A DNA stretch of 64,000 bases from Eledone cirrhosa (taxonomy: Eukaryota). The notes below the pieces were generated by a model. It was given only the letters and a program-made list of their open reading frames with translations, had not been told where the DNA came from and did no database searches. Shown here in pieces: positions 30,410-63,134 of the stretch. Within the stretch, counting starts at the first letter, position 1. Each line of letters starts with the position of its first letter. The translations under genes were made by a program, and so were the position numbers. The DNA is taken from assembly GCA_964016885.1 (NCBI GenBank), contig OZ024747.1, positions 40,362,001 through 40,426,000 of the forward strand, read 5' to 3'.

Positions 30410-30830
30410 TTATCATACACCTACGGTAGTAGGTGTATAATATTCTTAAGGTCCTATTTCGGTCACTCGCGACACCTTCAAAGCTTTGTCACTAATTCAA
30501 TTTTTGATAGAATTGGATGCGGTTTTTTGCACTTTATAGGACCACAGATAAGCTACTTTTTGACATAAAAATATTGAAATTTGGTTCAGTAGAAAAAAAG
30601 TTACATAAAAATAAGTGAGGACCAAAAGAGTGTAAGGAACTACATACATAAGTAACGCTTAGTTTGTTTCTAATTTCTAATACATTAAAATAGTGATAGA
30701 TTGTGCAATAGTGAATTGTGGTCCGGTAGCTCAGTCGGTAGAGCAGCGGACCGGCAATCCGAAGGTTGTGGGTTCGATTCCCACCCTGATTACTTTTCCT
30801 ATCTGCACTTCTTCCTATTCATTATTATTA
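30410..30830 (+). mobile_element. DINE-1/Helentron-associated-like element
   Basis: Terminal hairpin tacacctac-ggta-gtaggtgta followed by taat, resembling HINE/DINE-1 ends; carries a tRNA-like sequence. Confidence 0.4.
30720..30792 (+). pseudogene. tRNA-like sequence (anticodon GGC), probable pseudo-tRNA
   Basis: D stem GCTC/GAGC, T arm GTGGG-TTCGATT-CCCAC, anticodon stem CGGA/TCCG, imperfect acceptor stem, C at position 33, TTTT terminator directly after. Confidence 0.7.
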
Positions 30831-32344: not shown

Positions 32345-32763
32345 GTGAAGGTGCATGGCTTAGTGGTTAGAGCATTGGGCTTACAATCGAAAGGTTGTGA
32401 GTTCAATTCTCAGACCGGGTGATGTGTTGTTTCCTTGAGCAAGACACTTTATTTCACATTGATGAGATGATTGGACTGGGGTCCCTATCTTTCCACTACA
32501 AAAGTGGTCATGGAGGTGCCACAGCAAAAAAGCACCCAGCCCACACTGTAAAGTGGACGTATAGGCACCACGGAAAAAAAGCACCCAGCACTCACTGTAA
32601 ATGAGGTTGGTGTTAGGAAGGGCATCCAGCTGTAGAAATCAAGCCAGAATCAGTTCCCGTATGAGCAAGACAAGGTCAGCTGACCGGACACTGCCCACAA
32701 CAGGACAACCCAGCTAACCCATGCTAGCGTGGAAGAACGGACGTAAAATAATGATGATGATGA
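32345..32763 (+). mobile_element. SINE family 1 variant with RTE-B'-type tail
   Basis: Same head as 17541, but 3' end ...gctaacccatgctagcgtggaagaacggacgtaaaat(gat)n. Confidence 0.88.
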
Positions 32764-42972: not shown

Positions 42973-43826
42973 GGGGGGGGGGTCCTAGTTGAAGCTTAGT
43001 GGTCAGAAAATGTTTCTCAAGTTTCTCAACAGATTTTTAAAAAGATGATAAACTTATTTCATTTCAGTAAAGTTTTCTCTCAATTTACCTTGCCAGTTAA
43101 TCTCCATTTCAATTTCAAACCATCAACATCTCATCAACTACATCTTACCTACATTAAGGATATGCACATCATTTCATCCCTTTCCAAACTTAGCGTCCTC
43201 AGTAGCTTCAATGCATGTTCTTAATATAATGCTGTCAGTGCAGAAACCAAAACTTTCGCCATTCTAAACCCCTTCCCCTAACTTGTTTCATCCCTATAAG
43301 AGAGTTCAATCTACAAGATCCCAGACCTCATTCACTTACTGAGTGGGGTGGAACTTGTCAAATCAGACCAAGGAAACAATGTTTTTTTCCGTTGCTGCTA
43401 CTATCTACCAGTTGCAACAACCTTGATCATTTTCTCACCTCCAAACCTAATTAGTATCGATACATATTGAGTCATCTAACCGCTCCTTTATCATGACTAC
43501 CCAAGACATATAAATATACCATTCAATGCCCTCTATTTGAAATGCCATAGCACTTCAAGTCAACCAATTGGCTACACTATCCCTGGCAATATGTGCTTCA
43601 CCAATGACAGCTAGGCATGTAACAGAAAACAACCTTTTAAACATATCTTTCCATATTGCACACTCAACAAAACTCAAACTGAGAATGTTATATATATATA
43701 TGAGATACAAATACAAATAAGTAATGTTTGGTTATATGGAAGCCCAACAATGCAAATTTGGTAAAAATGCCAAATGTATTTCTTATTTGTATTTCATATT
43801 CTACAATGCTTCAAGCAAAGTACCAC

Positions 43827-43869
<43 letters not shown>

Positions 43870-43873
<4 letters not shown>

Positions 43874-45477
43874 CTCTCAACGCCTGCCACCCCAACGCCG
43901 TAGCCTTTTTCTCAAGATACGTGGACGATATCCTCATCCTCACTTCTTCCCAAGACACGGCGAACAGAATCTATGAGACGTTCAACAACACGGACGAGAA
44001 CATTGACTTCAGTGTTGAACACCCCAACGAAGACGGGTCACTTGCCCTCCCCGACTTCCGAATCAACATCACGGAACAAGGAGGGATCCACTGCAACTTC
44101 TACAGAAAGGCAGCCTGCAGGGACCTATTCGTTCACTACAAGTCCGCCCTCCCTAACAGTGCCAAAAGAGGATACATCACGAACGAGATCGCGCGAATCA
44201 AAGACAGATGCAGCGATCCCGCGAGTAGTGTCACTCATACCAAGCGATTCCTCGAGGTGCTGGAGACGAACGGGTACCCTACCTTGATCACAGACAGAAT
44301 AGGAGACACCAGACGCAAGAGACAGAGAAGCACCCAAGGCAAGTGCTTCCTTAAAATACCACACCTGGGCGAGAAAACCACCAACGCTATCCGCAAGGCT
44401 ATACGGAGGGAGGGCCTCGACATCCACCTGGCCCACTCGGGCCCCTCCCTGCGAAGATGCCTCTCCAGGAAAACCGAAAAGTCTACTGACGCATGCTCCC
44501 TCAGAGACTGCCCGATACGCCATACTAACTGTTGCCTACGCACATACGTCGTGTATAAGATAGAATGTGACAGGTGCAACCAATACTACATAGGTAGCAC
44601 AATTCGACCTTTGCACATCAGGATCAAGGAACACATTAAAACCAGGGCCTCGTCTTTCCGGAAACACATAGACAAATGCGGAAACAAAGACGGAAGGCTC
44701 ATTGTCACAATTTTAGCGACTGAAAGAAACGTCGGCACGTTACGTATTAAGGAAGGGCTTCTTATCAAACGCCTACAACTGCAATTAAACAACCGCCTAG
44801 AGAGAAGCGAAATGAAATGGCTGGTTTAAGTTAACAAGCGATGCAACAACACACGCACACACACACACGCAAACGAGACAACTACACACACACACGCACA
44901 CACACACACAATAGCATTCCACCATACGAACATACCACACTGCCAATACAGATGAACAAGACAACTACACACGCACACACACACTCAAGCGAGACAACAA
45001 CACACGCACACACACACACACACACAGTAACATTTAACAAGCAGGCAGAGAATGGACTGACAGCTAGCGCCATCCCACTCCCTCATTCGGCCGTTGACTT
45101 CTGTGCGGCCGGCCCCATTTCGCGGGCCCAACCGAATACCTCAGATATTCAAACCACAAACAGCGTAAGACGCGTTCCGAATTGTCCGACAGACAACCTT
45201 TTCCCCCACCCCGGAAAAAAAAACCCCAGTTGATGGATGTGAATCCGAAATATATAGGGACTATTAAATCTCTCCCAAGGTAACTCTCTCTCTCTCTTGT
45301 GTTGTTATTATTATTTTTACCCTTTCACTATTCCCTTCATTCTACACATCCCACACATCTTATACACACCACGCATCTCAACGTCCACCCACTTACATAT
45401 CTCTCTCTCTCCTACACCGGACCCTGTTACCCGGAGATTTACCCATTTGCATTGTCGAGGCTTCCAAACGACTTATA
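43870..45477 (+). mobile_element. Penelope-like element, 5'-truncated (RT C-terminus, GIY-YIG endonuclease, pseudo-LTR)
   Basis: RYVDDIL, YRK, VVYKIECDRCNQYYIGST.R.L..RIKEH, final E and N motifs; open to stop at 44829; (TA)n on both sides. Confidence 0.93.
45224..45259 (+). ncRNA. Degenerate minimal hammerhead in Penelope pseudo-LTR
   Basis: ccc-CAGTTGA-t-ggat gtga atcc-GAAA-tata-TA-ggg; core differs from CUGAUGA at two positions. Confidence 0.55.
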
Positions 45478-45549
45478 AATATATATATATATATATATAG
45501 AATTCCCTTTTTCGGATTATATTACTGTGAGAGCCCTGGTTTCTGTTGA

Positions 45550-45631
45550 GCTCTGCTGATGAATGAAATTCCAACCGTGACCATCTCCACTGAAAGTTTT
45601 CATGAAATAGTCTTTTAAGACTATACAGAGC
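45550..45631 (+). ncRNA. Type I hammerhead ribozyme, copy 1
   Basis: gctctg-CTGATGA-atgaaa...tttcat-GAAA-tagtct ttta agacta-TA-cagagc; three stems and full core; AUA site, cleavage after 45625. Confidence 0.9.
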
Positions 45632-46178
45632 ATTTGATGTTATTCCAAATTGAAGGATAAGTGTTTCAAACTTTATTTTATCATGAGTTAAAGGTCTATA
45701 GATTTTTCCCTGGATTTTACTAAATTCTGTGGATGAATGTATATCCTGATTCTCTTTTGAGATGAGTTTGAGTTATTTTTCCTAAATCTTCCGTTAACTA
45801 CTTTTCCCATCTTGACGGTATAGTCGCATATATGTTATAGAATGCCGTTAGCTTCTTGCTAAAACAATCTCTATACCTCTCATTTATATTTATACTCGGA
45901 TTCTTTTCCTAGAGTGCTTAAACTATCTGTGACTAATCCCGGTTTTTTTCATAAAAACTGTGATAATTATTGCTATTTTGCTGAACTCCTTTGTAGAGTT
46001 TTTTTCAGAATGTATTTGACTGCTATTTCTTGTAAATAAACATTCACTTCCATCCTGACGTCACTAGCCCCGTTTTTTCCTCATGTGCTTTTTCATAAAT
46101 ACACATGAAGACGAACTAGCCAGTTTTAGAATTCCCTTTTTCGGATTATATTACTGTGAGAGCCCTGGTTTCTGTTGA

Positions 46179-46260
46179 GCTCTGCTGATGAATGAAATTC
46201 CAACCGTGACCATCTCCACTGAAAGTTTTCATGAAATAGTCTTTTAAGACTATACAGAGC
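46179..46260 (+). ncRNA. Type I hammerhead ribozyme, copy 2
   Basis: Identical to 45550-45631; cleavage after 46254. Confidence 0.9.
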
Positions 46261-46497
46261 ATTTGATGTTATTCCAAATTGAAGGATAAGTGTTTATCAT
46301 GAGTTAAAGGTCTATAGATTTTTCCCTGGATTTTACTAAATTCTGTGGATGAATGTATATCCTGATTCTCTTTTGAGATGAGTTTGAGTTATTTTTCCTA
46401 AATCTTTCGTTAACTACTTTTCCCATCTTGACGTTATAGTCGCATATATGTTATAGAATGCCGTTAGCTTCTTGCTAAAACAATCTCTATACCTCTC

Positions 46498-46564
<67 letters not shown>

Positions 46565-46565
<1 letters not shown>

Positions 46566-48189
46566 TAGCAGAATGGCCTGGCATTGCTCGGGCTTCTAAA
46601 CATAGATTGGCATGTTTATCTGTCCTTTCTGAAACAGTACAGAGAAGTACAGAATATCTCGGGCTGGGGATGGTGTCTACATTTTGTGCTTAGGCAAATA
46701 ATTTTCCATTAAGACTTTTCAAAAGCATATAATTGCATTCCCTCTCTTTTTTGTTGTTGTTTTTGCTGCTGTTGGTGTGATAGCAGCCGTTGGTCGTTCT
46801 ACTAACACAGTCTCATCCTTCTTCAGCCAATCGTGTATATCCCCTTCTGCCTCGTCTACCTAAACAATGATTGTAGCACCTCCTTGTACACAATGTTCCT
46901 TGTTCTTCCGTGTCGGGTATATGCAAAGAGATTTGTCTTGCTTCCCAATCTTGAGCAGCCAATGTATAGTTGCCCGTGTGAAAAACATGACTCTTCCAAA
47001 AGAAGACCAGCAACAGCTAGGGTCTGACCCTGGGATTTGTTGATAGGCATTGCAAAGCTGACACGGTTCAGCTAATGGTTCGTTGGTTGTCTGTTTCAAG
47101 TGCTCTTCTGGTGGCAGTATGTTCAGCATCTTGCGACCGTCGAATAGCAGATTCCACTGATGATTCGTTTGCCCGCCTTGTTCTTTTTCTTGCCGTTTTC
47201 ACAGTAATTCGGCCAATGGAATATCTCTTCCTTCGAGGCATGACCTAAAAGCAGGACGAAGTAAACTAAGACTAACTGATAGAGTAAGGAGTGATTTCTG
47301 AACCGTTGAGTATGTAATTGCTGGCCTTGTGCCAGAAGTAGTGGGACCTTTTGGGTGACATATCGGCAGTAACAATGACGAAAAGCCATCTGTGCTTTCG
47401 TGAAATAAATACGTTTGTTTATATTTCGTTTTTGTGTATGCAAAAATATCTGTACACGAATATATAATTATATATATATATTAAAATAACAGATTAAAGT
47501 TTAAGCAGAGAATCGTTGCTTTCACCCTTAACGGGATCGTCTGAAACTAAAAAAATCAATCTGTGAAAGCAGAAGTAAATATTTCGAAAAACGTTGCAAC
47601 TGAAGAAAGACAGGAAGACGATACTTTGGTTCGTGAAGACGTTCCCTGGCAATGAACGGAAAATAGCGAAGATAATACGTCAGCAATGAGAACAATCTTT
47701 TCATAATGTCATAATTGTTTCTACTTTTTTGGCACAAGGCCAGCAATTACCCAGTACATTACTGGTACTTCATTTTATCGACCCCGTAAGGATGAAAGGC
47801 AAAGTTAACCTCGGCGGGATTTGAACTCAGATCATAAAGGGCCGTAACTCTATGCTGCAAAGCATGGCGTCAGACCCTCTACCGATACTGCCATGTCATA
47901 ATGCAGACAACCAGACATACAGACAGATATTATAAGGGCGCGACGTTATAGCTATGTATCTATCTAAAAAGAGAGACTAATAAAGAGCGAGAGATCGCTA
48001 ACCGGCGCCTAACACCCCTTTAACAACAGAAAATTGAAAAATAAAAGCTGTAGTTAATATCTTTAGACCACAAGGAATATATAAATGCAAGTTTGAAGTC
48101 AATCGGAGTAGAAATGTGGATTTGTATAGACTTTGCAAAAATTAGGACACACACACACACACAGACAATTTCAGTTTTATATATATAGA
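46565..48189 (-). mobile_element. Internally deleted Helitron with PIF1-like helicase remnant
   Basis: 5' A|TCTATATATATAAAA at 48189, 3' hairpin+CTAG|T at 46565; INKSQGQTL...FSHGQLYIGCSR...TRNIVYKEVL at 46856-47050. Confidence 0.92.
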
Positions 48190-62628: not shown

Positions 62629-63134
62629 TAGGTATATGATTAACCTGGATGCAGTAATGGTTAATTACTACACTGGATAGAGTTGACATACGGTGAGAAG
62701 TTACTCAAGCACACAGAATTGTAAGCACACAGAATAAATTACCTTTATATATATATATATATATGGCACATGGCTTAGTGGTTAGAGCATTGGCCTTGCA
62801 ATCGAAAGGTTGTGAGTTCAATTCTCAGGCTGGGTGATGTGTTGTTTCCTTGAGCAAGACACTTTATTTCACATTGCTCCAGTTTACTCAGCTGTAGAAA
62901 TGAGATGATAGGGACTGGGGTCCATATCATTCCACTGTAAAGTGGTCGTGGAGGTGCCACGGCAAAAAAGCACCCAGTACTCACTGTAAATGAGGTTGGT
63001 GTTAGGAAGCATCCAGCTGTAGAAATCAAGCCAGTATCAGTTACCGTCCCACCCTTGCAAGCAGGGAAAAAGCGGACGTAAAATGAAATGATGATGATGA
63101 TGAAATGATATATATATATATATATATATATATA

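What the first reader, a model, noticed from the sequence alone, without database searches (positions are those of the whole stretch)
45499..46505. 629-nt tandem unit with two perfect hammerhead ribozymes beside a Penelope element: candidate octopus retrozyme/circRNA
Seen: about 1.6 near-identical copies of a 629-bp ORF-less unit inside (TA)n. Each copy has a complete type I hammerhead (stem I gctctg/cagagc, CUGAUGA, stem II atgaaa/tttcat, GAAA, stem III of 7 bp or more, AUA site), with sites exactly 629 nt apart. It begins about 20 bp after a Penelope-like element. Known: tandem type I hammerhead repeats in animals (non-LTR retrozymes) yield monomeric circRNAs, and Penelope elements carry hammerheads. 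Inference: read-through transcription would excise a 629-nt monomer able to circularise, and the partial-multimer insertion is what rolling reverse transcription of a circle would give, possibly by Penelope RT/GIY-YIG. The monomer is larger than the animal retrozymes I know of; whether it is undescribed cannot be checked here.
Basis: partly seen in the sequence, partly recalled or inferred. Interest (0 to 1): 0.9.

Follow-up and report, generated by a model that had tools for sequence, protein, structure and literature searches.

The report
Hammerhead retrozyme family in TA microsatellites
This is one of more than 800 recent copies of a non-coding 629-base repeat that carries a predicted self-cutting RNA; nearly all copies end at the same internal point in TA repeats and run on through the cut site, which suggests they were likely pasted in from a circular RNA by a borrowed Penelope-type enzyme, a known kind of element with an unusually readable record.

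Summary
Observation confirmed. Two complete type I hammerhead motifs lie 629 nt apart in a 1.6-unit, ORF-less array inside (TA)n. The family is dispersed: 822 exact 3' junctions and 1,017 hammerhead matches, with sister subfamilies 75-84% identical that keep the ribozyme through compensatory changes. It fits the known animal non-LTR retrozymes, and 629 nt is no size record (51-972 bp in a 2026 preprint).

The added value is the insertion anatomy. Copies share one 3' end about 264 nt past the cleavage site, are 5'-truncated, and 43 of 90 read through the cleavage site with no pile-up or scar. Genome-wide, 1 copy ends and 5 begin there. First and last units share array-private variants in 9 of 42 arrays. 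This favours target-primed reverse transcription starting internally, Penelope-style, on a circle. An uncleaved multimer template is not excluded, and long arrays also grew by DNA duplication.

The adjacent Penelope-like element is probably a co-tenant of the TA tract: no homology, and 0 of 29 other copies has this subfamily alongside. Cleavage and circular RNA are untested. The scan had no look-alike of this DNA, only a tandem-hammerhead note from a rotifer.

The parts
45500..46505 (+). Retrozyme array, about 1.62 units, 5'-truncated, ending at the family's fixed 3' end (unit position ~390)
45550..45631 (+). Type I hammerhead motif 1: stem I 45550-55/45626-31, core 45556-62, stem II 45563-68/45598-603, GAAA 45604-07, stem III 45608-23, predicted cleavage after 45625
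46179..46260 (+). Type I hammerhead motif 2, identical, predicted cleavage after 46254
45626..46254 (+). Predicted 629-nt monomer / circle (cut site to cut site); circular MFE -134 kcal/mol, 59% paired, z -3.95 against 30 shuffles
   Evidence: prediction only
45537..45583 (+). Candidate pseudoknot: 5' flank of stem I (45537-41, 45545-48) with loop II (45572-75, 45579-83); one position pair reads G-C 73, G-U 8, A-U 7, A-C 0
   Evidence: inferred; few independent lineages
46470..46505 (+). Family-wide 3' terminus joining (TA)n; inferred start of reverse transcription, about 264 nt after the cut site
45480..45499 (.). (TA)10 spacer between the Penelope-like element and the array; part of the target tract
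46501..46564 (.). (TA)32 tract at the 3' junction
43871..45479 (+). Neighbour: 5'-truncated Penelope-like element (RT C-terminal part and GIY-YIG, stop at 44829; non-coding 3' part), ending at the shorter of its family's two 3' ends
45224..45260 (+). Atypical minimal hammerhead-like motif of the neighbour element (non-canonical core, palindromic TATA stem III), conserved across its family
   Evidence: activity unknown

Best explanation
This is a dispersed, non-coding, recently amplified tandem element with a conserved type I hammerhead (a non-LTR retrozyme) that is likely cut into 629-nt monomers, likely ligated into circles, and likely copied back into (TA)n microsatellites by a Penelope-type RT/endonuclease that would start at one fixed internal site and roll round the circle. 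Shown: copy number, fixed 3' end, TA target, variable 5' truncation, read-through of the cut site without scar, ribozyme covariation, monomer-like homogeneity of arrays, later DNA-level duplications. Inferred: (1) read-through transcription of copies with two ribozymes, here possibly from the upstream element; (2) self-cleavage; (3) ligation by a host ligase such as RtcB; (4) nicking of (TA)n and priming on the UAUAU at unit position ~386-390, chosen by protein or structure because other TA-rich sites of the unit are not used as 3' ends; (5) synthesis that falls off at a roughly constant rate (mean about 390 nt), so about 1 insertion in 8 is long enough to hold two cut sites and act as a new source. 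Which Penelope-like family supplies the enzyme is not identified.
For:: 2,120 candidates, 39 scored; all 38 listed terminal pieces end at unit 390-396 while 5' starts scatter; of 21 loci picked by the hammerhead pattern alone with the end in view, 19 end 265-269 nt after the cut, one at 260, one at 225; 822 exact 3' junctions (control 0); 261 internal continuations. (first 90 junction matches in coordinate order): 43 of 90 pass the cut site, 18 of 90 exceed one unit, 0 stop within 6 nt of the cut site, drop-off per 125 nt is 0.25-0.29 from 150 to 775 nt; 71 of 84 5' flanks contain (TA)4. Genome-wide 5 copies begin and 1 ends at the cut site. No length change at the cut junction in 142 contexts. 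First versus last unit of one array differ by 0.58%, between arrays 1.42%; 9 of 42 arrays have a variant private to the array in both first and last unit, including the window's. Subfamilies 75-84% identical keep 13 of 13 core and 36 of 39 core+stem I/III positions against 429 of 629 overall (Fisher p 0.0005, three monomers); 3 pairs change on both sides, 95% of cells paired; a further compensatory stem I pair is visible in L317/L318. Dead-ribozyme units of L343 occur at that one locus only (6 of 6). The neighbour family has the same anatomy: partial tandems, fixed internal ends, TA target. A Penelope-like protein is reported to initiate internally on AT-rich nicks (PMC11167929). Circles are shown for coral, mussel and axolotl retrozymes (PMC7229834).
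Against: No test of cleavage or of a circle was possible. No Rfam hammerhead hit. In PMC11167929 the ribozyme was dispensable and unprocessed RNA was the main substrate in vitro; in the 2026 preprint 8 of 9 tested Xenopus retrozymes did not cleave. A U-U variant at the base of stem II spreads well (20 carriers), and recurrent variants within the young subfamily are not depleted in the ribozyme (6 of 46 in 51 of 629 positions). 33 of 42 arrays show no private shared variant. Period-2 and all-but-last patterns (L121, L124, L126, L128) show DNA duplication, which can also homogenise units. No homology to any sampled Penelope-like locus. Inverted 5' segments, a Penelope hallmark, are rare: 1 of 90, plus L348.
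Confidence: 0.6

Rival explanations
1. Same element and enzyme, but the template is an uncleaved multi-unit transcript; the enzyme starts internally at the fixed site of any unit. The ribozyme is slow or acts at another step.
For: Gives the same fixed end, read-through and scar-free junction. Unprocessed RNA was the main substrate for the anole Penelope-like protein. DNA-expanded arrays exist and could supply homogeneous multimers. U-U stem II variants spread.
Against: Cleavage would destroy this template, yet the ribozyme is the best-kept part over about 25% divergence. Only 7 of 90 insertions exceed two units, so lineages would shrink each round. 15 of 166 unit-specific substitutions recur in another array, and I saw no ordered set shared by two arrays.
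Confidence: 0.25
2. Cleaved linear monomers are the template and the enzyme jumps from the 5' end of one to the 3' end of the same or another.
For: Explains ribozyme conservation and array homogeneity without ligation.
Against: No pile-up of 5' ends at the cut site (0 of 90; 5 genome-wide) and no added or lost bases at the junction in 142 contexts. That jumps usually leave scars is recalled, not tested.
Confidence: 0.08
3. A DNA-level repeat (satellite spread by recombination, or a Helitron-like rolling-circle element) that merely carries a ribozyme.
For: Local DNA duplication is real (L342 repeats element plus flank).
Against: Most copies are shorter than one unit (72 of 90), dispersed, polar and TA-targeted, the pattern of the neighbouring retroelement. 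The ends lack the recalled Helitron TC...CTRR termini. The ribozyme shows covariation.
Confidence: 0.05

Closest known systems
Animal non-LTR retrozymes (Cervera & de la Pena 2020, PMC7229834; review PMC7761336)
   Same: Non-coding, low-GC tandem units with one canonical type I hammerhead each; predicted self-paired circle; proposed copying of circles into multimeric cDNA by Penelope-like elements.
   Different: 629 nt versus 150-450 bp there; mostly sub-unit, 5'-truncated, TA-targeted insertions with one fixed internal 3' end, not described in the parts read; long loop II with a candidate pseudoknot; expression not shown here.
Vertebrate retrozymes as Penelope pLTR derivatives (Li, Clavereau, Pollet, bioRxiv 10.64898/2026.07.22.740005)
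   Same: Meets their definition of an active element (two consecutive units with complete motif); size within their 51-972 bp; co-occurs with Penelope-like families; local expansion by unequal crossover.
   Different: No pLTR homology found here; no mollusc among their 35 genomes (31 vertebrates, 3 insects, 1 coral); they do not analyse insertion ends in the main text.
Endonuclease-positive Penelope-like elements (anole PAc, PMC11167929; Craig et al. 10.1101/2021.04.23.441226)
   Same: Partial tandems, internal initiation downstream of the hammerhead, AT/(TA)n targets, occasional inverted 5' segments.
   Different: No ORF; full-size rather than minimal hammerhead; one 3' end instead of two.
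Non-autonomous Chlamys elements such as MRC1 (Craig et al., passage)
   Same: [quoted passage not shown]
   Different: Those resemble their autonomous partners at the 3' end and mostly lack hammerheads; here no partner was found.

Membership tests
Type I hammerhead ribozyme | Conserved core CUGANGA, GAAA, UH | tested here: met
   13 of 13 invariant across three diverged monomers
Type I hammerhead ribozyme | Three stems, stem I open | tested here: met
   MFE fold; 95.2% of 270 cells paired, 3 pairs with changes on both sides in 18 related sequences
Type I hammerhead ribozyme | [quoted passage not shown] | tested here: inconclusive
   candidate pseudoknot with one covarying pair; few independent lineages
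Type I hammerhead ribozyme | Match to an Rfam hammerhead model | tested here: not met
   the 29-nt loop II may be the reason (inference). A library match is not itself a defining feature.
Type I hammerhead ribozyme | Site-specific self-cleavage | not testable with these tools
   needs in vitro transcription
Non-LTR retrozyme | Tandem units each with a complete type I motif | tested here: met
Non-LTR retrozyme | Non-coding, GC under 50%, no long terminal repeats | tested here: met
   longest ORF 40 aa; GC 33.7%; architecture. PBS/PPT not searched.
Non-LTR retrozyme | Many genomic loci | tested here: met
Non-LTR retrozyme | Predicted self-paired circle | tested here: met
   z -3.95 against 30 shuffles
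Non-LTR retrozyme | Expressed as monomeric linear and circular RNA | not testable with these tools
Non-autonomous derivative of a Penelope-like element | Sequence homology to the pLTR or tail of an autonomous family | tested here: not met
   none with the neighbour or in the 111 loci scanned by profile; only 70 of 150 scored GIY-YIG places (10,596 candidates) were fetched
Non-autonomous derivative of a Penelope-like element | Penelope-type insertion signature (fixed internal 3' end, 5' truncation, partial tandem, TA target, inverted 5' pieces) | tested here: met
   inverted pieces rare (1 of 90)
Helitron-like DNA element | Fixed 5' TC and 3' hairpin-CTRR termini (recalled) | tested here: not met
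   ends read

The most novel reading that the evidence does not exclude
This family is a population-scale fossil record of an animal circular RNA being written back into the genome: a Penelope-type enzyme starts at one internal site of a ribozyme-made circle, primed by nicked (TA)n, and rolls across the ligation junction without scar. That would turn the proposed circRNA-to-DNA step of animal retrozymes into a directly testable reaction with a defined template, start site and target.
Probability: 0.5. Interest if true: 0.72.

Novelty: new member of a known kind. Interest (0 to 1): 0.5.

Why it matters
How animal retrozymes integrate, and which enzyme does it, is stated as open in the papers read. 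Long satellite-like arrays hide the insertion ends. Here hundreds of young, short insertions show the start site, the target and the read-through of the cut site, which specifies an in vitro test with a Penelope-like protein on circular versus linear RNA. It also adds a canonical hammerhead lineage with natural covariation and a candidate pseudoknot, and a 629-nt scaffold predicted to circularise.

Tried and rejected
Rfam scans: no hammerhead model hit; weak snoRNA-like scores far below threshold were rejected.

Expression: no RNA holder listed; the four runs laid are contigs of unknown kind and say nothing on RNA.

Link to the neighbour: whole pLTR alignment no better than shuffles (344 and 399 of 500); last 70 nt 57 of 500 for this subfamily and 8 of 500 for the sister, a marginal result among six comparisons that I did not accept.

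Partner search: GIY-YIG loci L212-L281 and full-length neighbour copies gave only separate retrozyme insertions in TA tracts. One family with a Cys-rich linker ends in a similar TTTTCAT before (TA)n; too short to count. The first hammerhead scanner failed on the positive control and was replaced.

Dimeric-circle idea: L343 alternates intact and broken ribozymes, but the broken type is found at that locus only, and L126/L128 fit two-unit DNA duplication better.

Target-site duplications: shared flank words in 4 of 84 loci (2 direct, 2 inverted; 55 had only about 83 nt of 3' flank), mostly hidden by TA.

The protein search gave mostly unnamed RT/GIY-YIG relatives and no clade assignment. Alignment A4 was poorly registered upstream, so the pseudoknot was counted by anchored patterns instead.

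Rows left out: L138 (units split at a deletion shared by its units), L139 (3' end missing), and the detached first piece of L121; L194 was parsed as a single unit but counted.

Full report
Observation. The window shows a TA tract (43831-43870), a 5'-truncated element with an RT C-terminal part and GIY-YIG domain (a longer copy has RVT_1), (TA)10, then a 629-nt unit and a partial second copy, then (TA)32. The two copies differ by a 13-nt deletion and two substitutions. Each holds a full type I hammerhead motif and the predicted cut sites are 629 nt apart. Rfam has no matching hammerhead model, so the motif was judged on its own terms.

Is the ribozyme real? The genome holds sister subfamilies 75-84% identical over the monomer. 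Across three diverged monomers 13 of 13 core positions and 36 of 39 core plus stem I/III positions are invariant, against 429 of 629 overall. In 18 hand-picked, related sequences 95.2% of cells pair and three pairs change on both sides, among them G-C to A-U in stem I and C-G to U-A in stem II (the shuffle control ignores relatedness). Loop II can pair with the 5' flank of stem I; one position pair reads G-C 73, G-U 8, A-U 7, A-C 0. Pseudoknots of this general kind are described in PMC3088659 (passages). Against strict selection: a U-U pair at the base of stem II spreads well, and recurrent variants in the young subfamily are not depleted in the motif.

Family size. The unit gave 2,120 candidates, 39 scored, full units 97-99% identical. 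Exact patterns count 822 3' junctions, 261 internal continuations, 1,017 hammerhead cores and 4,137 copies of a motif shared by the subfamilies. All are lower bounds. The 'single-locus duplication' refutation fails.

Insertion anatomy. All 38 terminal pieces listed end at unit position 390-396, running into (TA)n. Of 21 loci chosen by the hammerhead pattern alone, 19 end 265-269 nt after the cut site (the last few bases are TA matched by chance, so the true end is about 264). I then took the first 90 of the 822 junction matches in coordinate order (this needs an intact 29-nt junction). 47 stop before the cut site, 43 pass it, 18 exceed one unit, 7 exceed two. None stops within 6 nt of the cut site, and the drop-off is flat across it. 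71 of 84 resolved 5' flanks contain (TA)4. Genome-wide only 5 copies begin and 1 ends at the cut site. The junction shows no length change in 142 contexts (overlapping loci may repeat a copy). So the template was continuous across the cut site, and copying started inside the unit, not at the cleaved 3' end.

Circle or multimer? First and last units of one array differ by 0.58%, units of different arrays by 1.42%. Nine of 42 arrays carry a variant seen in no other sampled copy in both first and last unit, the window's array among them. That is what copying one molecule twice gives. But several long arrays show period-2 or all-but-last patterns best read as later DNA duplication, and such arrays could supply homogeneous multimer transcripts. 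The circle is favoured because cleavage would destroy a multimer template, yet the ribozyme is the best-kept part, and because units with a broken ribozyme in L343 did not spread. I put the circle at 0.6 and the uncleaved multimer at 0.25.

The neighbour. Its family has about 3.1-3.3 kb partial tandems, two fixed 3' ends 52 nt apart, a minimal hammerhead-like motif and the same TA target. Its ORF copies are 94-99% identical to the window's, so it is of similar age. This matches the internal initiation shown for an anole Penelope-like protein (PMC11167929, main text read). But there is no sequence homology with the retrozyme, 0 of 29 other copies has this subfamily within 1.5 kb (three have sister fragments), and among the 90 loci the 3' ends of this and other Penelope-like families turn up in eight hits, in both orientations. 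At least six GIY-YIG families are present. The adjacency is best read as a shared target; the neighbour stays one candidate donor among several, and may drive read-through transcription here (inference).

Comparison. The element meets every testable feature of animal non-LTR retrozymes (PMC7229834, results and discussion read; review passages). The preprint 10.64898/2026.07.22.740005 (abstract to discussion read; supplements closed) reports units of 51-972 bp and argues for pLTR origin, so neither the size nor the Penelope link is new. Craig et al. (passages) note TA targeting and non-autonomous head-to-tail elements. Nine searches listed no paper describing an octopus retrozyme or a fixed internal end for animal retrozymes; the library lacks most subscription papers and repeat databases. 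The host taxon was not checked. The scan had no look-alike of this DNA and one tandem-hammerhead note from a rotifer.

Verdict. Real, a new member of a known kind, with an unusually informative insertion record. Interest 0.5; 0.72 if the circle-templated reading is confirmed.

Noticed in passing
window 43690-43830: A short TA-flanked fragment ends just before the neighbour's TA tract with a motif like the neighbour family's long tail: probably a third element in the same tract.
   Followed up: no
L263, L272, L274, L258, L251: At least two further families of canonical-looking type I hammerheads in TA tracts, unrelated in sequence, some with inverted 5' copies: the genome likely holds several retrozyme-like families.
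   Followed up: partly
window 45224-45290; L209 2210-2500: In the neighbour family an ATG lies inside the hammerhead-like core and is followed by a possible 5' splice site; the long tail ends inside the N-terminal reading frame, as in the anole element.
   Followed up: partly
L213, L223, L232, L236, L274: A GIY-YIG family with a Cys-rich linker carries a degenerate minimal hammerhead-like motif (UUGAUAA core, GAAA CCGG UA) and ends in TTTTCAT before (TA)n, like the sister retrozyme subfamily.
   Followed up: partly
L343 (G000:C1:82128400-82136400): An array of 12 or more units, about 80% identical to the window unit, in which intact and broken ribozymes mostly alternate; the broken type is confined to this locus.
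   Followed up: yes
L025, L058, L197; L036, L168: Flanking sequence is duplicated across some insertions, inverted in three and direct in two.
   Followed up: partly
window 30720-30792, 32356-32413, 62769-62832: Three tRNA-like matches; the last two are near-identical partial ones and may be heads of a tRNA-derived SINE.
   Followed up: no
window 46565-47250: Minus-strand frames just after the array read like a broken helicase fragment of a Helitron-type element (resemblance recalled, not tested).
   Followed up: no
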